Assembly (NCBI GenBank): GCA_963711565.1
Contig: CAVQEQ010000004.1
Coordinates: forward strand, 1,571,293-1,635,292
Origin: an uncultured delta proteobacterium
GTDB lineage: Bacteria; Desulfobacterota; Binatia; Binatales; Binataceae
Direction of reading: 5' to 3'
DNA: 64,000 bases
Both the position numbers and the translations under genes were made by a program. Below are positions 51,334-64,000 of this stretch, in pieces (position 1 is the first letter of the stretch; each line of letters opens with the position of its first letter). The notes below the pieces were generated by a model that saw only the letters and a list, made by a program, of their open reading frames with translations, did no database searches and was not told the origin of the DNA.

Positions 51334-51564
51334 CTATAAGAGTGCGGAGAATTGCTCGACAGTAAGACCCGCCTGACGAATGATCGATCTGAGCGTGCCG
51401 AAGGGCACGTCACCCGAATGGGACGGCACGGTGACTCGAAGTTCGGGATGATCGCGATGTTTCAGCTGAACGTGGCTGCCGGTCGAATGATGAACGAAGA
51501 AACCGGCTCTCCCAAGCGCGGTCACGACTTCACGCGCCTTAAGAACCGGAAGGGCTGGGCTCAA
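51334..51564 (-). CDS. hicA: HicA family mRNA interferase toxin
   Basis: GFFVHHSTGSHVQLKH...VTVPSH..DVPFGTLRSIIRQAGL. TTG start overlaps the hicB stop. Confidence 0.9.
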   Translation of the reverse strand: MSPALPVLKAREVVTALGRAGFFVHHSTGSHVQLKHRDHPELRVTVPSHSGDVPFGTLRSIIRQAGLTVEQFSALL

Positions 51565-51839
51565 AGCGCGACCACTACCTCCTCGCGAATCGGCTGGCCT
51601 TCGGGCGGCGTCTCGGCCGGTATCGCCTCGCCGTCTTTGCGGAGCCCTTCCAGATGGCAGCGCAACGCATCGCGCGCCATCGCGCGAGCGTCGTCGAGGG
51701 TGCGGCCGAAGGTCACAATCTCGGGGAACGCCGGAAACACCACAGCGAAGCTGCCGTCGGTCTGCGGCTCAAAGTAGACAGTGTAGTGGTAGGGACCGTG
51801 TGCCGCTGTCGTCGCTTGGTTCTTGCCTCTCGACTTCAT
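51561..51839 (-). CDS. hicB: HicB family antitoxin (short, no obvious DNA-binding domain)
   Basis: YTVYFEPQTDGSFAVVFPAFPEIVTFGRTLDDARAMARDAL...GEAIP. Confidence 0.88.
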   Translation of the reverse strand: MKSRGKNQATTAAHGPYHYTVYFEPQTDGSFAVVFPAFPEIVTFGRTLDDARAMARDALRCHLEGLRKDGEAIPAETPPEGQPIREEVVVAL

Positions 51840-51911
51840 CGCTTTTGAGAGTACTACGGCAAGCCTCCCCGGTGCCACTCGCACAGAGACTCAGAGCCAT
51901 CAAGAGAGGAC

Positions 51912-52982
51912 TTAGTCCTCGAACACGTGATGCGGCGGGGGCGGCGCGGGGATGCCGGCGTTCAGCTCGACTACCTGGCGCTTGAGCGCTTCCTCGGGGA
52001 CTTCGCCAGCGTCGAGGTAGAACTGGCGGTACCACTCGCGCAGTTGATAGATCGGGCCGTCGCCCTCGCATAGAAGGGGATTGTCGATGCGGACCTTGTT
52101 ATCCCAGATGGCGACGTCCTGGTAGAAGCCCTGCTGGATACCTTTGATGTAAGCGGCGACGATCTGTTGGGACATCTCATCGCTCACGCCCTCCATCTTC
52201 CGCACGATCATGCCGAAGCGTAAGTCGAAGCTCTTAAGATGAATGGGCACGTGGCAGTTGAGCAGGATCGAATCGATCGGAAAGCCGCCCATCTCACCTT
52301 TCATCTCTGTGATCTGATAGGCGGGGCCGAAATAAGTCGCGCAGGTGGCGAGGCTGCCCTGATTTCCTTGCGTGCCGGAACCGATCATGATCTGCGTCGC
52401 CTTGTGCGCCTGGAATATGTTGGCGAAGTAGTCAACCGGCGCGCCGTGCACGACCGGAAAATGCGCCATGTCGGCGACGTTGTCGATCAGCTCGCGGCAG
52501 TTGGTGTTGATGGTCCACTTCTCGATTACCCAGTCGCTCCACTTGTCGGAGAAGCATGCGTCGATGCGCGGGATCGAGACCTCGGGCGGCGGCGGATTGT
52601 TCTCAGGATCGTTCCACACGAACAGCAGCTTGTTCTGCTCGCAGGCCGGCCATGACTTCACGCGCGCCTTGGGCGGAATGCGTTTGCTGTAGGGAATATT
52701 GTTGCACTTGCCGTCACTGCCCCAGCTCCATGCATGAAAAGGACACACCACCGAATTGCCCCGTACCTGGCCGCGGCTAAGATCGGCGCCCATATGCGGA
52801 CAGTAACTGTCGAGGACGTGAACCTGTTGATCTTCGCCGAGGTAGGCGACCAGGCGGGTGCCGAAGGCGTTGACGGTGTGCGGCTTGCCGTCCTTGTAGT
52901 CGGCGGCGAGTCCGAGGCAGTGCCATCCGCGAGCGTAGCGATCCGCAATCGGCGATGCCTCAATCATATGTGTCAACGCCAT
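51912..52982 (-). CDS. kshA: 3-ketosteroid 9alpha-hydroxylase oxygenase subunit (Rieske)
   Basis: RYARGWHCLG, Rieske CPHMG...CPFHAW, ELIDNVADMAHFPVVH, QDVAIWDNK.RIDNPLLCEGDGPIYQLREWY. Confidence 0.92.
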   Translation of the reverse strand: MALTHMIEASPIADRYARGWHCLGLAADYKDGKPHTVNAFGTRLVAYLGEDQQVHVLDSYCPHMGADLSRGQVRGNSVVCPFHAWSWGSDGKCNNIPYSKRIPPKARVKSWPACEQNKLLFVWNDPENNPPPPEVSIPRIDACFSDKWSDWVIEKWTINTNCRELIDNVADMAHFPVVHGAPVDYFANIFQAHKATQIMIGSGTQGNQGSLATCATYFGPAYQITEMKGEMGGFPIDSILLNCHVPIHLKSFDLRFGMIVRKMEGVSDEMSQQIVAAYIKGIQQGFYQDVAIWDNKVRIDNPLLCEGDGPIYQLREWYRQFYLDAGEVPEEALKRQVVELNAGIPAPPPPHHVFED

Positions 52983-53224
52983 GGCCCGGCCCTCCGCCAT
53001 CTGTCCGATGTGGATGCTTACAATCCGTGCCGCGGGCGGCATCGTCTTTTTGGACGATAGCAATCGCCGCGCATTTCGACTGTCATGCTGACGACGGGAG
53101 CGCAAGCGACGGGAGGAACGGACCTCGGACAGCTTCGCGCACGCGAAGCCGGCACCGGTCTCTGAGTCGCCCGCCTTGGGCGGGCCACCACAATCGCCTA
53201 CACTGCTCGCCGGGAGGAACTTCA

Positions 53225-53632
53225 ATGCCATCAGTGACAGGCGGCTGCGCGTGCGGCGCGGTCCGATACGAATGCTCGGCGGACCCGATTATGGCGGCCA
53301 ACTGCTATTGCACGGACTGTCAGCATTCGACGGGCACCGCGATGGCGTCGGTGATGCTGGTGCCAAAGGCGGCGTTCAAGCTCACGGGCGAGTTGAAGCA
53401 CTATGAAGTTACGGGTGATAGCGGGGGCAAGGTCAGCCGCGGATTTTGCCCAACCTGCGGCTCGCCGATTCTATCGCTGCTCCCCGCGATGGCGGACTTC
53501 GTCGCGTTGAAGGCGGGCAGCCTCGACGACCAGTCGCAGTTCAAGCCGATGATGCAGGTATTCATGAAGAGCGCGCCGCCATGGGCTCCGGTCCGCGACG
53601 ATCTGCCGAAGTTCGACAAGCAACCCGGCTGA
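53225..53632 (+). CDS. GFA/CENP-V family protein
   Basis: GGCACGAVRY, CYCTDCQ, RGFCPTCGS. GGAGG RBS upstream. Confidence 0.9.
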   Translation: MPSVTGGCACGAVRYECSADPIMAANCYCTDCQHSTGTAMASVMLVPKAAFKLTGELKHYEVTGDSGGKVSRGFCPTCGSPILSLLPAMADFVALKAGSLDDQSQFKPMMQVFMKSAPPWAPVRDDLPKFDKQPG

Positions 53633-53782: not shown

Positions 53783-53872
53783 TGGCGGAGGGGGTGGGAT
53801 TCGAACCCACGAGGGACTTTCATCCCTGCCGGTTTTCAAGACCGGTGCCTTCAACCACTCGGCCACCCCTCC
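53783..53872 (-). tRNA. tRNA-Ser (TGA)
   Basis: Reverse complement GGAGGGGTGGCCGAGTGGTTGAAGGCACCGGTCT-TGA-AAACCGG...GGGTTCGAATCCCACCCCCTCCGCCA has a long variable arm and encoded CCA. Confidence 0.97.
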
Positions 53873-53905
53873 ATGCTTCCGCCGTTGCGGATTTTGCCCG
53901 CTTCG

Positions 53906-53935
53906 ATCCTAAAATCAGCGCGCGGGGTTTGTCTA
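53906..53935 (-). promoter_or_regulatory. candidate sigma70 promoter for tRNA-Ser
   Basis: Minus strand TAGACA-N18-TAGGAT just upstream of the tRNA 5' end. Confidence 0.45.
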
Positions 53936-53983
53936 CGGCTCGGCTATCCTGAGCCTTGAGCCAGCGCGAGTAAATCCCGTGGG

Positions 53984-54053
53984 CTCTCAAGGCAAAAGAG
54001 ATTCCGCCATATGGTCGCTAATCAGTTGCGTTGGCGATGGGAGCTGCGAGGCG
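53984..54053. repeat. 70-bp direct repeat copy 1 (duplicate of the efflux OMF gene 3' end)
   Basis: CTCTCAAGGCAAAAGAGATTCCGCCATATGGTCG...GGGAGCTGCGAGGCG matches 56607-56676 with 2 mismatches. Confidence 0.95.
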
Positions 54054-54263
54054 GGCGGCCGTCGGCACTGGGCTGGAGCAGCGAGCGAATCCATGCCGTC
54101 AGGTTGGCAGAGGATGAAATCGTGATCAATGTCGAGTCTGACGCCGTCACCATCGTCCGGGAGAGAGATTGGGGCGGAATGCGGAAGGTGTATCGGTGCC
54201 TAACGTGAATCTTACGACCACTGTGATTCCAACCGGGCGAATTCTTCTGCCACATCGCATCAG

Positions 54264-54833
54264 CTATTCATATACAGCCACATTGTGCCAGTCGTTGCGG
54301 TACTCAACATTGATATGCGCGGTCTTAGTTACCGCGCCTTCTGCTGCTACGACTACATCAAATCGGCATGTACCTTGATATCCATTAAGGTAACCAAGGT
54401 TCCTGCGGCTCGCATGAATTATCCAGCCCGGTTCGCTCTTTGAGAATTGAACAAGGTCAACATACTGAGATACACCAAATGGGATGTTCTTAGGTTCAAA
54501 GCTATAGCCAGCCCAAGAAAGCTGGTAGCTATCAGCCAACAGATTTTCCGAAACCGCCCTTCCGTCAGTCATTTTGTAGAGGCCGATGATGTAGGCGTAG
54601 CATCCCTTCGCCATCCGACGCTTATTGAAATTGCGGACGCGGAACCTGACCCACAGTTTGTCATTCGACTCGTCCTTGTTTTTGGGAGCGCCTTCGCAAT
54701 CGATCACGAGCTTTGGTCCGAACAACCACTCATCGAAGAAGCGGCCAATAGTGTTCAGTAAGTATCCGACGATGACAAGGACAAGTGGACCGATCCACGC
54801 GGGAAGAACGAAAGATGGGGCTGGCGCAGGCAT
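54264..54833 (-). CDS. hypothetical protein, N-terminal TM helix + beta-rich domain
   Basis: WIGPLVLVIVGYLL hydrophobic stretch, then PKLVI...VRFRVRN... beta-strand pattern. Lower GC; ORF extends to 54899. Confidence 0.65.
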   Translation of the reverse strand: MPAPAPSFVLPAWIGPLVLVIVGYLLNTIGRFFDEWLFGPKLVIDCEGAPKNKDESNDKLWVRFRVRNFNKRRMAKGCYAYIIGLYKMTDGRAVSENLLADSYQLSWAGYSFEPKNIPFGVSQYVDLVQFSKSEPGWIIHASRRNLGYLNGYQGTCRFDVVVAAEGAVTKTAHINVEYRNDWHNVAVYE

Positions 54834-55019
54834 CCGGCTGTGCTTACCACACGTCGCCCACAGAAGGCTAGCAGCCACGCGCCTAGCACGGAATGCCACC
54901 AGTGCGCCGTTGTCGGTCGCGCGGGAGTCTGCTAACTCAGAGAGGTATGAACCTTCGACATGACGCTGCGCTCGCGCTGGTGGGATGGTACTGGATGGGT
55001 GCCAAGTAGGCGACCGTTT

Positions 55020-55739
55020 ATGTCACGACCCAAGATAGAAATAGTCGGTTCGCTTCGCCTAACAGATGAAGAAGGTCTGAGGTTTTCTTTACCATTTGGC
55101 GAACCACCTAAGGCTTTTTGGATGCAGGCCTTGGACGTGGGAAAATACAGCGGCGAAACATATCCGGAGTCGCCAAAGATTGAATCATTCCAACATATAC
55201 CCGGTCCGCAGCGTATGGCTGCCTTCAATGCGGCAAAAGAGCAATCCGAGCGAGATCGAGAAGCATATTTTCGATCAGTATTTTCAGGTCCAGAGTACAA
55301 AGAGGCGGCCCGAGATTTTCTTGACCGGCAGATGCGCGAACCGCAATTGTTCGATGAAGGAGGCGCCTTTTGGGCATACCGCGGAAATGTAGTTCGTCTT
55401 GATACGAAGGAGCCTCAAGAGGCGCGCATTAAGGATAGAGAAGCTCTACTGATAAAGCATCATGTTCTGCAAAAGGATAGGCACTATGAGAAGGTCCGCC
55501 GCGAGGTAGCGGCGCTTGAAAATATGGAAAAGTTGGAGGGCGTGTCTCGCGCGCCGATTCCCGATAGGGTCCGCCTCTTCGTCTGGCAACGCGACAAGGG
55601 CCAATGCGTCAAATGCGGTTCACGAGAAAAACTGGAGTTCGACCACATCATCCCGGTTACGGCGGGCGGAAGTAATACCGAACGCAACGTTCAACTCTTG
55701 TGCGAAACGTGCAATCGATCTAAGGGGGCTATGATTTGA
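55020..55739 (+). CDS. HNH endonuclease with unknown N-terminal domain
   Basis: VWQRDKGQCVKCGS...EFDHIIPVTAGGSNTERNVQLLCETCNRSKG. Start may be 54960. Confidence 0.92.
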   Translation: MSRPKIEIVGSLRLTDEEGLRFSLPFGEPPKAFWMQALDVGKYSGETYPESPKIESFQHIPGPQRMAAFNAAKEQSERDREAYFRSVFSGPEYKEAARDFLDRQMREPQLFDEGGAFWAYRGNVVRLDTKEPQEARIKDREALLIKHHVLQKDRHYEKVRREVAALENMEKLEGVSRAPIPDRVRLFVWQRDKGQCVKCGSREKLEFDHIIPVTAGGSNTERNVQLLCETCNRSKGAMI

Positions 55740-56269
55740 TGACACGAGAAGACAGGCTCCGCGACGTTCTACAACTTTGCGCTTCTTTTGCGCGGAACCT
55801 TGCATGCTACCGCATTGGATGGAACGAGGAACACCAGCACCTTCTCAGCTTCGACAACGATGATGTTTGGCGGGTAGTAAACAACAATTGCCTTGACATC
55901 GGCGTATTGGAATGGTGCAAACTCTTTGGAGACAAGACAGGAGAGTACTATTGGGGAAACGTCGTCACCAATCCTGTAGGGTTCAAAGCAGACCTATTGC
56001 TTCATCTTGGGTTGGATGAAGAGGCGTTTAATCAGCAAGTTAACTCGATCCGCACATATCGCGACAAGTGGGTCGCTCACTGGGACTTGAATCGCATACC
56101 AGTTGCTTCAACTCTCGAAGTTCCGAACCAGGCCGTCTGGTTTTACCAGCCCTACATCAGGAAACACGAGCTACTTGGCATAACCTGGGACATTGATAGT
56201 GCTTACGAACATTTCGAGCGCATGGCCCACGCGGTCTATCGGACTGCTGCTAGCAAGCCATCCCTCTGA
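55739..56269 (+). CDS. HEPN-like (AbiU2-like) putative RNase
   Basis: All-helical-looking protein with VLEWCKLFGD and an R-x5-H motif (RDKWVAH). ATG overlaps the HNH stop (TGATG) with AAGGGGG RBS. Confidence 0.6.
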   Translation: MTREDRLRDVLQLCASFARNLACYRIGWNEEHQHLLSFDNDDVWRVVNNNCLDIGVLEWCKLFGDKTGEYYWGNVVTNPVGFKADLLLHLGLDEEAFNQQVNSIRTYRDKWVAHWDLNRIPVASTLEVPNQAVWFYQPYIRKHELLGITWDIDSAYEHFERMAHAVYRTAASKPSL

Positions 56270-56606
56270 TCTCGCCTTGGCGGGTGAGAAGCGTCGGGCG
56301 GGGCGGGGGCGCCCGCGCCGGTAGCCCCGGTGGCTACAACCAGCCCGGAGCTGTGGCGCGGTGGGTGTTTCGAGGCGACCGGGGAGCCGCTTCAGGCTTG
56401 GCGGACGGGCGGGCGAGCCACGGACGGCTGGATTTTCGCGACCCTCCGCCTTAGAACCGCACGGCGCGTGAGGATTCAGCGAAAACGGACGGGCGGACGG
56501 CCACTTCCACCTCTATCTTTTAAACGAGGACGGTCTATTTTCAGGTGTATATCAATTTGTAAATGTAACTCCCGGATACGTGCCGATATAGGCCAATAGA
56601 GAGTGC

Positions 56607-56676
56607 CTCTCAAGGCAAAAGAGATTCCGCCATATGGTCGGTAGTCAGTTGCGTTGGCGATGGGAGCTGCGAGGCG
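56607..56676. repeat. 70-bp direct repeat copy 2 (3' end and stop codon of efflux OMF gene)
   Basis: See copy 1; 68/70 identical. Confidence 0.95.
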
Positions 56677-58115
56677 TTCCAACCTCCGCCGAGCGCATCT
56701 ATTAACCCGCTGCTGGCCGTCATCTGTTCGATTCGAAGAGTTACGGCTATTTCCTGATTGGCTAGCAATGCAGTCTGCGCGACGATCACATCAAGGTAAG
56801 GATCGAGTCCTAATTTATAGCGATAGACGGCGAGTGTGAGAGTCCTTTGCGCCGACGTGACCGCCGCGTCCTGCTGGTGAATCTCCACCGACAGAATCCG
56901 CAACGCCGCGAGATTGTCTTCAACTTGCTGAAAGGCCGTCAGCACCGTCTGCCGATAGTTGGCAACTGTTTCCTCGTACTGCGCATTGAATTGCTCGACC
57001 GTGGCGCGGCGCAAGCCTGCGTCGAAAATGGTTTCCGCGACCGTCGGGCCAACCGAGAAAAAGCGGCTCGGCCATGTGAACCAGCTCGCGAACATGACGG
57101 TCTCGAATCCCGCCGCGGCGCTTAAGGTGACCGTCGGAAAGTATGCCGCTCTCGCAATGCCAATCTGTGCGTTGGCCTGCGCGACCAGGCGCTCGGCGGC
57201 GGCGATGTCGGGACGCCGCTCGAGAAGCTGGGACGGAAAGCCGAAGGGAATTGCCGGAGGAGTTGATTTGAGCGTCTCGAACGGAATCGAGAACGTCGAC
57301 GCCGGTTGGCCCGTCAGCATCGCGATGGCATGTTCAAATTCCGCCCGCTGGATGCCGAGAGCGGTATCCTGCGCCTGCGTGGATTTGAGTTGAGTCTCGG
57401 CTTGCGACACGTCCTGCTCCGAGTCGATGCCGGTCTCGTACAGAGCCTTGGTCAGATCGAGTGAGACTTGAAAAGCGATCACCGTCGAATCCAGCAGCGC
57501 TTTGAGCGAATCCTGTCCGCGAAGCTGAAAGTAGTCCGTAGCCACATCGACCTGGACAGTGAGACGGCTGAGCTCGAGATCCGCCTCGCTGGCTTGTGCT
57601 CCATAGGCCGCCGATCTAACAGTCTCGCGGATACGGCCGAAGAAGTCCGGCTGCCAGGTAACGTCGAAAGGAAGAAGATAGTCGGTAAATGTAGGCGATG
57701 AGATGCCTCCCATCCCGCCGGGGGTTAGTGTGGACGACAGCCGCTCCCTCGTGAGCTCTGGGCTGGTCGTCAGTGTAGGGAAAAGCTGCGATCGAGCTTC
57801 CTTGACCAGGGCGCGCGCCGCAAAATAGTTTTCCGCAGCGGCTACGATGGTTTGGTTAGAGATATCAACCTTGTCTTCCAGCGCGTCTAGCTGAGGATCG
57901 TTGAAAATCTTCCACCACTTACCGCGAAGGACGGCATCCTTCGGCTGCGCCACCTTCCAACCGTCCGTAGTACTGAAATCGGCGGGCGTTAGCTCCTTAT
58001 ATTCAGTAGGCACTTCGGTGGACGGCACGTGGTACTTGGGACTGAGCAGGCATCCTGCGAGGAGGCACGCTACTATCGCCAGACAGCTAGTGGCTCTTAG
58101 ATGGTAAAACGTCAT
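56610..58115 (-). CDS. RND efflux outer-membrane lipoprotein (NodT/OprM/TolC family)
   Basis: Lipobox LLAGC, WWKIFNDPQL, LLERRPDIAAAER, AFQQVEDNL, ALGGGW. Confidence 0.93.
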   Translation of the reverse strand: MTFYHLRATSCLAIVACLLAGCLLSPKYHVPSTEVPTEYKELTPADFSTTDGWKVAQPKDAVLRGKWWKIFNDPQLDALEDKVDISNQTIVAAAENYFAARALVKEARSQLFPTLTTSPELTRERLSSTLTPGGMGGISSPTFTDYLLPFDVTWQPDFFGRIRETVRSAAYGAQASEADLELSRLTVQVDVATDYFQLRGQDSLKALLDSTVIAFQVSLDLTKALYETGIDSEQDVSQAETQLKSTQAQDTALGIQRAEFEHAIAMLTGQPASTFSIPFETLKSTPPAIPFGFPSQLLERRPDIAAAERLVAQANAQIGIARAAYFPTVTLSAAAGFETVMFASWFTWPSRFFSVGPTVAETIFDAGLRRATVEQFNAQYEETVANYRQTVLTAFQQVEDNLAALRILSVEIHQQDAAVTSAQRTLTLAVYRYKLGLDPYLDVIVAQTALLANQEIAVTLRIEQMTASSGLIDALGGGWNASQLPSPTQLTTDHMAESLLP

Positions 58116-58119
58116 AGTC

Positions 58120-59257
58120 CTATGCACTCGCTGATGGCTCCGCGGCGCTTGGAGCAGGTCCAGACTCACGACCAGGTAACCCGTGCCTCGCTTGCATCCG
58201 CAGCCGCAGCCGGTCGAACGCCAAATAAACGACCGGCGTTGTAAAGAGCGTGAGCAACTGACTCAAGATCAACCCACCGACAATCGTGATGCCGAGAGGC
58301 CGTCGGAGCTCATAGCCCATACCCGTTTCCAGCGCCAATGGCAGTGCGCCTAACAACGCGGCCGTCGTTGTCATGAGGATTGGACGGAAGCGCAACATGC
58401 ACGCTTCGAAAATCGCGTCGTAAGTGCTCTTTCCCTCCTCGCGCTCGGCCTGCAGAGCGAAATCGATCATCATGATTGCGTTCTTCTTGACGATTCCGAT
58501 CAGCAGCACAATGCCGATGATCGAGATGATGTTCAGATCCTCGTTGAAGAGCATCAAGGCGAGCATCGCGCCTACGCTCGCCGACGGCAGAGTAGAAATG
58601 ATCGTCAGTGGATGGACCAGGCTTTCATACAAGATGCCGAGAACGATGTAGACGGCCAGCAGCGCCGTCACAATCAGCAGAGGCTCAGTGCTCAGCGACT
58701 GCTGGTAGGCCTGCAGTGTGCCGGCATAAAAGCCCAGCAGCGTGGAAGGCGCGCCTAGCTTCTGTTCCATCTGGTTAATGCTCGAGGTGGCATCGCTCAA
58801 GGACACGTTCGGCGCGAGGTTAAAGGACACGGTGACCGACGGGAATAAGCCTGTATGGTTGATCGCCAGTGGTGTTGTATTGGTTTGGTGCTTGGCTACC
58901 GCTACCAGCGGGATGTTATTGCCGTTGGACGAAACAAAGTAAACGTCTTTCAATCCTTCCGGGCTTTGCCACCATTGCGGCGCAACTTCCAGCACCACGT
59001 AATATTGATTTGCCTGGGTGTAAATGATCGACGCTTCGGATTGGCCGAATGCGCTGTACAACCCCGAGTCCAGCGACTCTACGGTAAGGCCGAGCTCCGC
59101 CGCAGTGACGCGATCATAGTTCAACAACTCATCGAGACCGCCGTTCTGCTGGTCTGAACTTACGGCCTCCAGTTCGGGCAGGTGCTTCATCGCACCCAGC
59201 AGGACCGGTCCCCACTTGGCAAGCTCCTGTTCACTGTCGGATTGGATCGTGTACTGG
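58120..59257 (-). CDS. RND efflux permease (MdtB/MdtC-like), C-terminal third only, truncated at the junction
   Basis: LYESLVHPLTIISTLPSA, GIVKKNAIMMIDFAL, LRFRPILMTT, ELRRPLGITIVGGL, LTLFTTPVVY. Confidence 0.92.
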
Positions 59258-60672
59258 ATATCTTCTTCGCTAGGGTTCAAAAATTGATCAAATGGTATGA
59301 TATCATCATGACCAAGCTTCTCAGCTGCTTGATTATATAGAGCTTGAATCTCACCACTTAATCCTGGCTCAAATATCGGTTTGGTCCCATCTCTGGTTTT
59401 GGTCCCATCTTCGGTTTCGGTCCCATCTTTAGTTTCGGTCTCATCTTTAGTCGTACGAATTAGAGTGCTTTTTATAAAGCAATTCTTAATCGTCTGATCT
59501 AATATAGACGTTTTCCAAGCTTATGTAACCCAGAATAGAGTATAAGAGATATTCATCCGAAGATGTGGATCAAGACCTCGATCAAGAAAAGCAACCATCT
59601 AACGTAACCATTTCTTCCTATAATGGTGCTTCAAATTTTGGATGATTCCCTGATCTAGAGGTTGATAAATAGACGTTGCGTTTGCTGGGAAAAAAACGAC
59701 CTTAATATGTCTAGGTGGTGGGGTATTTTTAAGACCAGCAATATGCGGAGAGGCATTATCTAATAACAATATTGCCTTCTTATGTATAGGAATACGCCTA
59801 TAAAAAGCACGTAACCATTCTTCCATGATGTCTTGACGCATCCACGCCTTCTTATTATGACGCCAGACGCAGCCAAGAGCATGGAAATTAACTCCCCGGA
59901 GTGCACGAGGTGTTTTTGCCGTTCCAATTAACCATAAAGGCATTCGGTCTGATCCATCTGCGTTTGTTGTGACAACAAGAGATATTCTGGTCTTATCTTT
60001 TTTCTTTCCGGCAATTTGTTTATAAGAAAGACCCCCATTTGGCATCTGTCGCCAAAAGAGGCCCGTTTCGTCCATATTATAGATCTCAGATGGCTCATAT
60101 TGATCGCATATCGTACGAATTCCCTCTATTTGATCATGTATAGAAGATGGGACTGAAGCAGCTTCTCCATGGAAGGTATAATATCGAAGATTATACCGTT
60201 TTTTGAATCGAGTAAGCCAACCCTCAGAAAAAGCGGGTCTTTGTTATTGTTGATATTTAGGGATTTGAGACCAAAGCTCGTTTGCTTTTGTTTGGATTAA
60301 AGGGCCAGAGATCGGATATCCATTATCTATATGCCCTTTAACCCAATTAAATAGCCTCTGGTCTAAAATAGGCCAGAAAGACGAGGATATACGTGTCTCT
60401 GAGGGCCCAGGCCCCGAATCAAGGTAATCATATTGGGATGAAAGAATTCTTGAGACCGATACACGACTAATCTTATGGTCAAATTGGGACTGAAACCAAT
60501 CCACATAAGCAGATTGGGTCGGTTTTGGATTAGAATTAGACCAAAAGACTCGAAGAGCTTATTTGTGTGTATCTGATATACCTAATCGAGCACGTTTTGA
60601 TGGTGGTGGTATAGTAGGTTGGGTGGCCGGTCGGACGCATGGCAACGGAGGTAGGTCAGAGATTTCAGGCAT
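59258..60672 (-). pseudogene. DDE_1 transposase pseudogene with premature stops
   Basis: FSEGWLTRFKKR, YNMDETGLFW, LLLDNASPH, YQPLDQGII (34 residues between D2 and D3 by manual count). In-frame stops at about 60559, 60244, 59599 and 59521. Confidence 0.88.
59378..59449. repeat. 4 x 18-bp tandem repeat inside the transposase C-terminus
   Basis: Units like GTTTCGGTCCCATCTTTA, encoding TKDETE/TKDGTE/TEDGTK/TRDGTK on the minus strand. Confidence 0.85.
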
Positions 60673-61389
60673 TCTGATTGGTCGATATGGCTGACTAAGT
60701 GGATGACTCAGCAAAGATGGGAGGAAAAGGAGTGTACAAAGGTGAGTGTTCTAAAAGCGGGAGTTTAGTATGGGAAAATCAAGAAAAGTGGGTCCATCCA
60801 AGCGAATTATGTAACAAAAGCGGGAGTGTTCTAAGAGCGGGTGTACAATAGGTGAGAGTTGACTGTATATGGTGGTGGTGGTGGTTTGGTGATGCATTAC
60901 GGTCGCCTACGGTTGGTACCCCATCAAAAAAACTCTCTGATTTTGAACCCCTATAACCACCCTTTCTAATTGTTTAAATTACTTAAAAATAAAATGGAGG
61001 GTGGTTGAAATATGAATTAATAATATATTTAAATCTAAGCTTCGTATGAGCTAGGAATATATTTGTAATGCACTCGAATACTTTAAATGTAATGCACTAG
61101 GACCCACTTTTATTTCCCCAACATACTTAAGAAATCCACCCTAATTGTAATGCAGTGCATTATAATTACCCCTATGGGTTAGGTATGTCCGTGCCTGGAC
61201 TGACACGCGTATTTTTTTCCCCTCCTTCTCTCTCCTAATTGAGTACTTGGAGTATCCACAAGTGGGACCAGAACGCGTGGTTTCTGATGGGGTGAGACAC
61301 TCGCTTGTGGCTTACGTTAACTAACTTAACTAACGTATTTCACAGCCGGACGGGTCACCCTATGAGCGCGGTGTAGAGGTGGGTCAAGT

Positions 61390-61503
61390 AGGGGTGTCCA
61401 AACTTATGTGTCACTATCGTACTAAAAACCAAGCTAAGCATCTGTGACCCGCCCGACCATGAAATACGTTAGACTGGGTTACTCAGGGGTGTCCAAACTT
61501 ATG
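61390..61503. repeat. direct repeat AGGGGTGTCCAAACTTATG (2 copies), possible DNA-transposon end remnant
   Basis: Copies at about 61390-61408 and 61486-61503. Resembles Tc1/hAT-type terminal motifs. Confidence 0.45.
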
Positions 61504-61711
61504 AGCAGTATTTAGGGAAGCCCCCACCCACCCATATTTGTGTGTTTTCTCCGGGGGGCAGTCACTACAGCGATTGATGATTGTATACAGTGTTCCACCC
61601 CGCTGCAGCGATATACAATACGTTGCTTCGACGACATCTGAACGAACCCCCTCACCGTTGTAATTTCAATTCGTGACCAGCGCTTCTGTTTGATCGTTCT
61701 GAAGACGGCAG

Positions 61712-63685
61712 ATGTGGCGACAGATTCAATGCCTTGGCACGTCGATGCTATTCCTCTACCTCTTGCTGTGGCAAGCAGTTGTAGCAGTTGATGCCGATTT
61801 TAGTAGCCTCATTTCTCGGCTGGCATTGGACAATTCGCCTCTGCCAGCCCACATTCCAAAGGTTGTTCATTTTATCTATGTTATATTAAGACCGGTCGGC
61901 TGGGCTGAGTATGCGGCCGTTAAATCGGCTGCGGTCAATTTGCAGGCCAAAACCATCAACATTTGGGTTCCCTTGGAAGAGGGATTTCCGGGCGAGATAT
62001 GGCAGCACATCTTGGCCATTCCCGGAGTCGTGGTTCGGAGAATCGAATTTCCGAATACAGTATATGGACACAAAGTCGAATTGCCAGCGCACGTGTCCGA
62101 CTTGGTCAGGCTCCAGGTGTTGTATGCTGAGGGAGGTGAGTTGCTTATGTAGGTGGTGAATGATTCATTCCGGTTGAAGGTTACTGACGTCCGGCAAAGG
62201 TATCTACATGGACACCAACTTGATAGCCCTGCGATCTTCTGATCCAGTCATCTCTGGGGAGTCCACTCGTGAAACGGTCATTGGACATGAATGGGGTCCC
62301 TCATTCTGCAATGCGATGATCATGTCCAAGCCGCGCTCGCCGTTTATGAAACGATGGATGAAGACATATTGGACGTTTATGGAATTGCCTCTGCTGTGGA
62401 ACTTTCATTCAGGAATTGTGCCATATTTCCTGCAGCTGTGGGATAATTCTAATATATCCGTTTTAGACGCCCACGCATGGTTCTATCCCATGTGGGGAGA
62501 TGATTCCAGGGCTTATATACCATGTGGCTGGGCAAGAGTTGGTGGGACATTGAGGTCAATTATGGGGTCCATCTGTGGCATTGGGACGCGATGCCAGTCC
62601 CTCGTCTGTTTTCCAAGGACGTCGTTCGGGAGATCGATACCTCTTTTTTCTGCGCCATTAGAAAGCTGTTTGACGATTTCGGAGGGGATGGTTACATTTC
62701 GACGCCCGTGAAAGAGGACAGAAACTGTTTAGTGGTCTGGATGGAGACGTTAGTCCCGCATGCTCAGGGTTTACTTGCTTCATACGACTTTTCCGAGGAC
62801 AGCAGCGACGCCAAATGGGTCGACACTTCTGGGAATCATCTCCACGGCTGGGCTCCAAATGGTACAGCTATCATACATCAGCCCGATGAATCTGTTGAAA
62901 GACATTTTTCCGCAGGCTCGTATGCCGTTCTCCCAGTTCCAGCTGATTACGACGCCCGGGTGGGAACCATCCACATAGGGATCAGATTTGACGGACATGA
63001 ATGGGCTTCAAATGTACAGCTTGCGAAGCTACGAATCGAAGGCCACCGAGAATTGCTCATCAGTGTAGTGCGTGACGCGCAGCCTGAAGTCGTCAGGGTT
63101 CGCTTCCAATGGATCGCGCCTGGTTTGTTCCGAGGATGGAGGGAAGGCGTGGATTGGAATAGCGATAGGTATGTTCAATAAGTTTGCCCAGGCATCTAGG
63201 ATATTGGCCGCTGACTGCAACGGAAAAGTATCTTTCTTCCGAATGGCCCATCACATAATCTGACGGTGTCATTTGATCGGAGATCACAGGGAGTAGTTTA
63301 TGTGTTCATCAACAATACAATGTTATCCAGGCTCGATGTGAATGTTCTGTCTGAGCCTGTGATAGCGCTTGACGCCTGGATCAATGCCAGGGATGCGGCA
63401 AACTTGGATATGGGCTTTAGAGGTTACTTTCGGCATTTGATGTTATACTCAAATGTACTCTTCGACAGTATGGGGAATCAAAGTATGTTGAATTGTGCTA
63501 TTTTTGTCGATTGGATTTCTAACTGAATAGACAAAACCGTCATGTCGCTAGGTATGATTAACAAGGCCCTCCTCTACTGTGGGAACGCGATCGCGTTATT
63601 ACTTCTCTACCGACTTGGTGGTCGGCGCTGGAGATCCCTTTATTTCCGGCTACGGCACGTGCAAAGACTGGATATGAATCGATGA
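61712..63685 (+). CDS. fungal glycosyltransferase family 32-like protein with C-terminal ConA/LamG-like region and TM anchor; 3 introns, one indel near 62505
   Basis: Signal peptide, IPKVVHFIY, HVSDLVRLQVLYAEGG|IYMDTN. Introns 62136-62199 (GTGAGT..CTGAC..AAG), 63169-63228 (GTATGT..CTGAC..AAG) and 63483-63530 (GTATGT..CTAAC..TAG) all restore frame. Last exon encodes ALLYCGNAIALLLLY. Confidence 0.8.
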
Positions 63686-64000
63686 ACTACGATTTCTCCA
63701 GTGATCTGGGCTGATGGTCTTGCAAGCATATATAAACCAACCCCCAGGTCTCCATATTACGTTCATCGGACAAATGCATTACATATACAATTCATCCAAC
63801 TTTACTACCGCCATGCCACCCGCTTCATCTTATCATAGCCCCGCACTGGTTCAACATAGGCTAAGATCCCCAAAGCTTGATGCGCTCCAAAAGTACCTCT
63901 GCACGTGCACTACGGATATCAACAAGATACATGGAAGGCACACGCCCTTGATGCTTGCCGTGCAAGCGAGGGATCATAAGCCTATCGACGGCGGTCTTGA

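What the first reader, a model, noticed from the sequence alone, without database searches (positions are those of the whole stretch)
55020..56269. Translationally coupled HNH nuclease + HEPN(AbiU2-like) pair: candidate novel two-gene anti-phage or toxin-antitoxin system
Seen: the HNH gene has an unrecognised ~180-aa N-terminal region. Its TGA overlaps the ATG of a 176-aa helical protein carrying RDKWVAH (R-x5-H) and LEWCKLFGD. Known: Rx4-6H is the HEPN RNase motif, and both HNH DNases and HEPN RNases are common defence effectors. Inference: a DNase + RNase pair on a repeat-bounded islet is a strong defence-system candidate. I do not recognise it as a named system.
Basis: partly seen in the sequence, partly recalled or inferred. 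Interest (0 to 1): 0.7.

Follow-up and report, generated by a model that had tools for sequence, protein, structure and literature searches.

The report
Two hitch-hiking nucleases on strain-specific islet
A soil bacterium has picked up a 2.6-kb piece of DNA, missing from close relatives, that carries an HNH DNA-cutting enzyme and a HEPN protein predicted to cut RNA; both likely act against phages, but each usually occurs without the other, so they are probably not a dedicated two-gene system.

Summary
In detail: an intact HNH gene (55020-55739) overlaps by one base a 176-aa helical protein (55739-56269) with an invariant R-x5-H motif; its model best matches HEPN toxins and its family is HEPN_AbiU2-like. 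The islet is a real insertion: contigs in 5 of 8 runs laid (4 studies) skip exactly 2,623 bp between two 70-bp repeats, which are the duplicated 3' end of an efflux gene. It contains no integrase and looks like the cargo end of a tRNA-Ser phage-satellite-like element. The 'dedicated pair' reading is weak: in 165 family genomes the HNH family is in 14, the HEPN family in 10, both in 4, adjacent in 2; an orthologous locus keeps the intact HEPN with the HNH gone; a lone AbiU2-type HEPN is already reported to block phages. No nucleotidyltransferase antitoxin is present. Best reading: two separately mobile, predicted defence nucleases that travel together in one lineage. The more novel part is the HNH family: an undescribed N-terminal scaffold whose loop in 6 of 65 relatives holds the RNA-polymerase-binding domain of Mfd, a possible decoy or tether. 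Interest 0.38.

The parts
53783..53872 (-). tRNA-Ser(TGA); its 5' side is an integration hotspot in this family
   Evidence: ARAGORN; upstream DNA differs widely among the 29 relatives printed; elements integrated here in G017, G280, G362
53902..53977 (-). Remnant of the last codons of a tyrosine integrase gene, present with or without the islet
   Evidence: 79-87% to the same remnant or integrase end in G362, G280, G344; intact integrases stand at this place in G017 and G280; covered by empty-site contigs
53984..54053 (.). Left 70-bp repeat = the resident 3' end of the efflux (OEP) gene, displaced by the insertion
   Evidence: empty-site contigs carry the left-copy letters and join 54021 to 56645
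54264..54833 (-). ORF3, 189 aa, hydrophobic N-terminal stretch, no family; divergent cargo gene that travels apart from the pair
   Evidence: no Pfam or PADLOC match; 7 database hits; 3 of 165 family genomes, none in G465
54903..55009 (+). Decayed start of a small-protein gene of a family common in relatives (begins M-x-LRHAAALALVGWY); not an att site
   Evidence: 76-83% DNA matches to such gene starts in G400, G288, G053; translation ends in a stop
55020..55739 (+). HNH nuclease P0001, 239 aa: undescribed N-terminal scaffold (1-150), long helix (138-171), zinc-finger HNH domain (177-239)
55739..56269 (+). HEPN protein P0002, 176 aa, AbiU2-like, R108-x5-H114; predicted RNase
56312..56598 (.). 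Non-coding stretch like the distal end of a tRNA-Ser phage-satellite-like element
   Evidence: 70% over 297 columns to G017:C23:14770-15060, 65 bp inside that element's duplicated tRNA 5' fragment; that element encodes integrase, Prim-Pol and terminase
56607..56730 (-). Right 70-bp repeat (56607-56676) plus adjoining tract: a different allele of the efflux gene's 3' end that likely came in with the islet
   Evidence: 2 differences inside the repeat and 7-8 at 56678-56730 against empty-site contigs
56610..58169 (-). Outer-membrane efflux (OEP) gene, the target; its stop lies in the right repeat (start codon uncertain)
   Evidence: Pfam OEP E 1.3e-42; translation of the 3' end

Best explanation
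This is a strain-specific 2.6-kb insertion carrying two separately mobile nuclease genes, an HNH and an AbiU2-like HEPN, that likely each act as stand-alone anti-phage effectors and travel together in one lineage rather than forming an obligate system. Shown: gene anatomy, intact catalytic motifs, HEPN-like fold, the empty site, independent occurrence of the two families. Inferred: the fragment came from the cargo end of a tRNA-Ser satellite-like element and entered by recombination anchored in the efflux gene's 3' end; the two genes share a transcript; on infection the HEPN protein would dimerise and cut host tRNA or mRNA (abortive infection), as other HEPN effectors do; the HNH protein would be kept quiet by its N-terminal scaffold until a phage signal binds its variable part, and would then cut DNA.
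For: Empty site in X2, X3 and X5, X6, X8: 5 of 8 runs, 4 studies. HNH family in 14 of 165 family genomes (fragments included), HEPN family in 10 of 165 (two weak); both in 4; adjacent in 2; more than 1.2 Mb apart in G358 and G362. Of 154 collection loci with a long HEPN match, 118 have at least 800 bp upstream and 1 holds this HNH family (L114, the same locus as L045, fell under the length filter but is seen). 0 of 94 nearest neighbours from 50 genome loci is an HNH. L027 is the same locus as G465 (83-87% DNA identity, same flanking genes) with the HNH absent and HEPN frame and motif intact. Neighbours of HNH relatives include AbiU/AIPR, SIR2, NOV_C, GmrSD_N, toxin-antitoxin genes and integrases; neighbours of HEPN relatives include McrBC, DNA methylases, CAP12-TIR, PIN, ParE, HigB and 8 mobile-element genes. 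A single integron cassette with a HEPN AbiU2 domain is reported to resist T4 and T7 (bioRxiv 10.64898/2026.03.17.712381, one passage). Satellite hotspots carry such cargo (PMC9122126, passages).
Against: No function was tested. The pair recurs within one HEPN subclade (12 rows, SH-aLRT 95): directly in G465, and by equal contig lengths in P0125+P0004 (42,721 bp) and P0123+P0141 (1,946 bp), which is far more than chance and fits selection for the pair as well as common descent. No control set was run for the defence-gene counts in neighbourhoods, and many neighbours are housekeeping genes. Several HNH relatives are broken (G352, G368, G284, G143), as expected also of useless cargo. The best fold score, Z 8.7, is below what the tool calls safe for helical bundles.
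Confidence: 0.55

Rival explanations
1. A facultative two-layer system: the HNH protein is the sensor and first-line DNase, and the coupled HEPN is its back-up suicide RNase, switched on by the activated HNH protein or its products; either part can survive alone.
For: One-base overlap here, 32-bp gap in G465; pairing in 2 genomes and 2 inferred contigs, all in one HEPN subclade; the partners come from different HNH branches, which could mean the link formed twice; PMC3710099 (passages) reports HEPN fusions to HNH and other DNases in restriction systems as a layered defence.
Against: 10 of 14 HNH-bearing genomes have no HEPN-family hit and 6 of 10 HEPN-bearing genomes no HNH-family hit; L027 lost or never gained the HNH; no fused form among the 150 listed family representatives that I read or the 65 scanned.
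Confidence: 0.22
2. Transient cargo with no present defence role: decaying satellite freight carried in with the efflux-gene allele.
For: The islet holds decayed pieces (gene-start remnant, orphan element end); the empty form is the common one in the runs laid; broken copies of both families occur.
Against: Both frames and all catalytic motifs are intact here and conserved over 17 and 58 relatives; an AbiU2-type HEPN has a reported anti-phage phenotype.
Confidence: 0.16
3. A type II or VII toxin-antitoxin pair in which the upstream HNH protein neutralises a HEPN toxin.
For: Upstream-then-toxin order with overlap; best structural matches are HEPN toxins of HEPN-MNT pairs (5yep, 7ae2).
Against: The upstream protein is an intact nuclease with no nucleotidyltransferase or DNA-binding-repressor match; the HEPN stays intact without it in L027 and in nearly all other loci.
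Confidence: 0.07

Closest known systems
HEPN_AbiU2 family (Pfam PF18734); lactococcal AbiU2/AbiUii; Vibrio mimicus cassette HNPBCG_15845
   Same: R-x5-H motif, helical fold, size; 55 of 58 aligned members match the model at E<=0.1, one relative passes the cut-off (35.3 bits); top Atlas clusters carry it in 12% of members. The Vibrio protein acts as a single gene against T4 and T7 (one passage).
   Different: P0002 itself scores 14.8 against a cut-off of 26.8. No AIPR/AbiUi gene, Sel1-repeat gene or restriction operon beside it, the contexts given in PMC3710099 and PMC13064643 (passages). In Lactococcus AbiUii lowers rather than gives protection.
HEPN-MNT toxin-antitoxin toxins (SO_3166, PDB 5yep; 7ae2; 8xdj) and integron cassette HEPN (3jrt)
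   Same: Best fold matches among 48,161 chains: 5yep_B Z 8.7 (rmsd 3.4, 114 aligned), 7ae2_A Z 8.7 (3.5, 121), 1ylm_B Z 8.2 (3.9, 128), 3jrt_A Z 7.8 (3.7, 130).
   Different: 6-12% identity; about 30-40 residues longer; no nucleotidyltransferase gene next to it.
McrA-like type IV HNH restriction enzymes (EcoKMcrA, PDB 6ghc) and PADLOC mREase_IV
   Same: Zinc-finger HNH at the C-terminus behind an N-terminal domain; weak matches (6ghc E 7.7e-5; PDLC03656 E 4.7e-6 over 116-234).
   Different: The N-terminal scaffold matched no known modified-base reader by sequence or fold; in relatives it varies from about 55 to 190 residues and can hold an Mfd RID.
Septu (PtuAB), IscB, TerD-HNH fusions
   Same: Related HNH domain (PtuB E 0.23; IscB 45.1 bits; Deinococcus TerD-family protein 32% over residues 59-239).
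   Different: No ATPase partner; far under the IscB cut-off of 175 and too short for a RuvC domain; no TerD domain or ter operon.
Defence hotspots of phage satellites (P4-like; PMC9122126)
   Same: Variable nuclease cargo at the end of a small integrase/primase element at a tRNA.
   Different: Here only the cargo end is present, without integrase or att fragment, and the relatives' elements integrate at the 5' end of the tRNA.

Membership tests
HEPN superfamily | R-x4-6-H motif, conserved | tested here: met
   R108-x5-H114, invariant in 58 of 58
HEPN superfamily | All-helical HEPN bundle fold | tested here: met
   Model pLDDT 91.9; the first four of 48,161 chains are HEPN-type (Z 7.8-8.7; that 1ylm and 3jrt are HEPN is recalled, 3jrt also); Z is modest for a helical bundle and Foldseek found nothing at E<=0.001
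HEPN superfamily | Dimeric, metal-independent RNase activity | not testable with these tools
   needs biochemistry
Pfam HEPN_AbiU2 (PF18734) | Score over the curated cut-off (26.8 bits) | tested here: not met
   14.8 bits; no match in a six-frame search of the own genome, whose control also rang nowhere; family-level link shown by 55 of 58 members and one relative over the cut-off
AbiU (lactococcal) | AIPR-type AbiUi gene beside the HEPN gene | tested here: not met
   neighbours are HNH and ORF3; an AbiU-type gene lies near an HNH relative without HEPN in G366
HEPN-MNT toxin-antitoxin | Adjacent minimal nucleotidyltransferase antitoxin | tested here: not met
   none in the islet; none among 94 nearest neighbours at E<=1e-8
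HNH endonucleases (PF01844) | Score over cut-off and intact His/Asn and zinc cysteines | tested here: met
   46.4 bits against 21.4; residues read
Type IV McrA-like restriction enzymes | Domain that reads modified bases | tested here: inconclusive
   no sequence or fold match for residues 1-175; best Z 5.5 at rmsd 10, searched with the whole-protein model only
Type IV McrA-like restriction enzymes | Cleavage of modified DNA only | not testable with these tools
   needs assay
Septu (PtuAB) | Partner ATPase gene | tested here: not met
   no ATPase in the islet
IscB (OMEGA) | Full-length score with RuvC domain | tested here: not met
   45.1 bits against 175; match limited to 155-237
IscB (OMEGA) | Guide RNA upstream | not tested
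   no Rfam search run; the upstream stretch is explained as a gene remnant
Dedicated two-gene defence system | The two genes are found together in most loci | tested here: not met
   adjacent in 2 of 14 HNH-bearing and 2 of 10 HEPN-bearing genomes; 1 of 118 loci with room upstream
Dedicated two-gene defence system | Both genes needed for protection; physical contact | not testable with these tools
Self-mobile att-bounded island | Empty site with one copy of the repeat | tested here: met
Self-mobile att-bounded island | Own integrase inside the repeats | tested here: not met
   three ORFs, none an integrase; the integrase remnant lies outside the left repeat

The most novel reading that the evidence does not exclude
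P0001 belongs to an undescribed family of sensor-nucleases whose N-terminal scaffold is a slot for captured bait domains: several relatives carry the RNA-polymerase-binding domain of Mfd in a hairpin loop, so that a phage protein attacking the host's transcription machinery, or the polymerase itself, would trigger or position the HNH nuclease, an integrated-decoy design; here the nuclease is backed by a coupled AbiU2-type RNase to give a two-layer DNase/RNase defence.
Probability: 0.2. Interest if true: 0.72.

Novelty: new variant of a known kind. Interest (0 to 1): 0.38.

Why it matters
As it stands it is one more pair of candidate defence nucleases on mobile cargo, in a soil lineage for which I saw no defence paper among the 20 titles listed. 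It gives a clean natural experiment: the same HEPN with and without the HNH at one locus, and strains with and without the islet. The wider lead is the HNH family: 189 representatives at 50% identity share a scaffold with no fold match, and some have taken up the Mfd RNA-polymerase-binding domain. If that insert is a decoy or tether, it would be a new way for a bacterial nuclease to sense phage attack on transcription. AbiU2-type HEPN proteins have little mechanism in print (7 papers hold the term).

Tried and rejected
PADLOC and NCBIfam: no named system for either protein or ORF3. Foldseek against PDB: nothing at E<=0.001 for either model; wide structural search of the HNH model: best Z 5.5, helices only; the HNH part of that model has low confidence. 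Atlas: no usable hit for residues 1-175. PDB sequence search with the HEPN alignment: one chance hit. Viral contigs: no HNH-family locus, 2 HEPN loci. Plasmids: 25 records for the HNH and 8 for the HEPN, none over 80% coverage. Promoter and terminator scans: at chance level. No RNA holder listed. A class-wide search with an Mfd-RID-bearing relative found 10 of 401 genomes, none aligning over the RID, so the gene context of that form is unknown. Complex prediction of the two proteins was not available (queue full; no result). I first read L114 as a cross-phylum occurrence from its record title; rejected because G465, same genus as the window's genome, has the same contig coordinates. I first took 54903-55003 for a cassette or att site; rejected as a gene remnant. 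An att-circle model for the islet is disfavoured, not excluded. No listed contig piece or 73 spans either junction of the filled islet by 31 bases. Literature searches for HEPN+HNH two-gene systems, CarD/Mfd-HNH and decoy nucleases showed no title describing this pair or fusion; I saw listings only for these. Earlier-findings look-ups returned nothing; e1-4120290 does not bear on this.

Full report
Observation. The two genes are as described. P0001 (55020-55739, 239 aa) ends in a Pfam HNH domain well over the cut-off with all zinc and catalytic residues readable in the sequence. Its stop shares one base with the start of P0002 (55739-56269, 176 aa). P0002 carries R108-x5-H114, invariant in the 58 relatives I aligned out of 120 listed. 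The islet has 53.7% G+C against 62.8% for the window up to the tRNA and holds a third, divergent gene, ORF3, with no family.

Host. The genome has 4 contigs and 4.84 Mb. It is unnamed; a same-family locus matches a record titled Candidatus Binataceae, so I infer that family. Runs that hold the stretch are soil or wood-decay metagenomes by their labels.

The HEPN protein. P0002 alone scores under the HEPN_AbiU2 cut-off (14.8 against 26.8), but 55 of 58 family members match that model at E<=0.1, one relative passes the cut-off, and 29 of 30 Atlas hits fall in clusters carrying it. The model is confident and all-helical. Foldseek found nothing; the wide aligner put HEPN-type chains in the first four places of 48,161, at Z 7.8-8.7, modest for a helical bundle but in agreement with motif and profile. 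I take HEPN as established and RNase activity as predicted.

The HNH protein. Residues 1-175 matched no family, Atlas cluster or fold. A profile of ten N-terminal regions found 189 representatives at 50% identity, 150 listed; 60 of the 150 have a complete zinc-HNH motif, and many others are short fragments. The family keeps the first strands, a Q-x2-EP..W-x-Y motif, a long helix and the HNH, while the part between varies: 53-61 residues in minimal members, 110 in P0001, up to about 190. Of 65 longer members scanned, 6 carry a CarD/TRCF RNA-polymerase-interacting domain (E 2e-9 to 5e-17) and 1 an AAA_25 fragment. The insert sits in a hairpin loop at about residue 30 of P0001 and is closest to Mfd: 35-53% identical, for five of the six, to a stretch in the middle of a 1,155-aa protein of the own genome, and Mfd chains head the PDB hits. 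P0001 has no such insert. This suggests, without showing, a slot for sensor or bait domains.

Is it a pair? In 165 family genomes the HNH profile hits 14 and the HEPN profile 10. Four have both; they are adjacent in the window's genome and G465, and over 1.2 Mb apart in G358 and G362. Among 160 loci fetched for the HEPN family (the best 80 of 459 and of 119), two, L045 and L114, have this HNH upstream, and they are the same locus as G465. With a length filter, 1 of 118 loci with room upstream has it, and none of 94 nearest neighbours from 50 loci is an HNH or a nucleotidyltransferase. Two more pairings are inferred only from equal contig lengths. All four fall in one HEPN subclade. In that subclade L027 is the same locus as G465, with the same flanking hydrolase and P450 genes, and lacks the HNH while keeping its upstream leader and an intact HEPN; deletion of the HNH is the simplest reading. 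On HNH trees the G465 partner lies outside the window's clade, whose sister G439 is unpaired (AU p 0.024, quick tree, 29 rows, group chosen after seeing an earlier tree, so weak). The link is thus real but facultative and local.

Are they defence genes? By association and precedent only. HNH relatives lie beside AbiU/AIPR, SIR2, NOV_C, GmrSD_N, toxin-antitoxin genes and integrases (85 and 68 of 149 neighbours scanned, picked by me). HEPN relatives have about 10 defence, restriction or toxin-antitoxin genes and 8 mobile-element genes among 94 neighbours (my grouping, no control). PMC3710099 (passages) lists AbiU2 as a HEPN family of restriction operons and describes HEPN-DNase fusions. PMC13064643 (passages) says AbiUi alone protects and AbiUii lowers protection. 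bioRxiv 10.64898/2026.03.17.712381 (one passage) reports a single HEPN AbiU2 cassette resisting T4 and T7; its supplements were not seen. PMC13092281 (passages) validates other HEPN systems, none described as HNH+HEPN in what I saw. PMC9122126 (passages) describes satellite hotspots.

The islet. The 70-bp repeat is the end of the efflux gene, whose stop lies in the right copy. Contigs join 54021 to 56645, skipping 2,623 bp, in X2, X3, X5, X6 and X8: 5 of 8 runs, 4 studies. The filled form is covered by pieces in X1-X4, and ORF3 is on a 2,613-bp Logan contig, exactly the length of a 31-mer unitig running from 54024 to 56636 between the two repeats; that may be the window's own sample. Empty-site contigs keep the left-copy letters and differ from the window at 7-8 places in 56678-56730, so the window's efflux-gene end is a foreign allele reaching beyond the repeat. 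A donor fragment anchored by homology in the efflux gene and joined 70 bp short of the resident stop explains both repeat and tract; a circle integrating at the repeat would not explain the tract (inference). The stretch 56312-56598 resembles the distal end of a 10-kb element at the same tRNA in G017, which encodes integrase, Prim-Pol and terminase and ends in a duplicated tRNA 5' fragment. So the islet is likely the cargo end of such an element, now without mobility genes.

Assembly caveat. Contig C3 begins with window 56673-59257, and the window beyond 59257 is low-G+C DNA with a DDE_1 transposase, uncovered in the four runs laid, whose contigs run on elsewhere: a chimeric contig end that does not touch the finding.

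Verdict. Real genes, real insertion, known kinds of effector in a new local combination; not shown to be, and probably not, a dedicated two-gene system. Best explanation 0.55, two-layer system 0.22, idle cargo 0.16, toxin-antitoxin 0.07. Novelty: new variant of a known kind. Interest 0.38, carried mostly by the undescribed HNH scaffold and its Mfd-domain inserts.

Noticed in passing
P0155, P0163, P0167, P0173, P0175, P0198 (relatives of window 55020-55739): HNH-family proteins with an Mfd-like RNA-polymerase-interacting domain inserted in an N-terminal hairpin loop (6 of 65 scanned); P0187 has an AAA_25 fragment instead. Gene context unknown.
   Followed up: partly
window 59258-64000: Foreign low-G+C DNA with a DDE_1 transposase joined to the contig end; the bacterial sequence continues in contig C3. 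Chimeric assembly, likely eukaryotic.
   Followed up: yes
L266 1392-11682 (G017), L267 2312-16779 (G280), L269 6581-15020 (G362): Elements of 8-14 kb at tRNA-Ser(TGA) bounded by a duplicated 5' part of the tRNA; G017 and G280 encode integrase, primase and terminase large subunit. Small prophage- or satellite-like elements that use the 5' end of a tRNA.
   Followed up: partly
window 54903-55009; L270 4909-5202; L271 2250-6118; L043 390-755: A family of small proteins beginning M-x-LRHAAALALVGWY, often in several copies or as remnants in variable regions beside cargo genes; no Pfam match for the one scanned.
   Followed up: partly
window 53067-53184: An 80-100-bp intergenic repeat with 28 further matches in the genome; REP-like.
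   Followed up: no
window 51334-51884 (-): HicA-HicB toxin-antitoxin pair among steroid-catabolism genes (KshA at 51912-53231).
   Followed up: no
L066, L069, L082, L084 (upstream of the HEPN gene): Four loci share an upstream 170-180-aa ORF that looks by eye like a nucleotidyltransferase, with a ClpB-like gene downstream; no Pfam match for the two scanned. Possibly a HEPN-MNT form of this family.
   Followed up: partly
L235 6938-7459 and L248 6746-7240 (G358): Near-identical small membrane-protein genes stand beside the HNH locus and beside the frameshifted HEPN locus of the same genome, 1.3 Mb apart: cargo genes are being shuffled between islets.
   Followed up: no
L240 6761-7360 (G352); L237 5065-5883 (G362): Genes directly upstream of two other HNH relatives may be HEPN-like of other families: one has an R-x4-H motif by eye and no Pfam match, the other is DUF5677. 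Untested; would bear on the two-layer rival.
   Followed up: no
L273 4969-6546: A Deinococcus TerD-family protein in a ter operon ends in a related region plus HNH, 32% identical over P0001 residues 59-239.
   Followed up: partly
L114 / G465: The record title gives an acidobacterial order, while the genome with the same contig coordinates is classed in the window's own genus: titles can mislead on taxonomic spread.
   Followed up: yes
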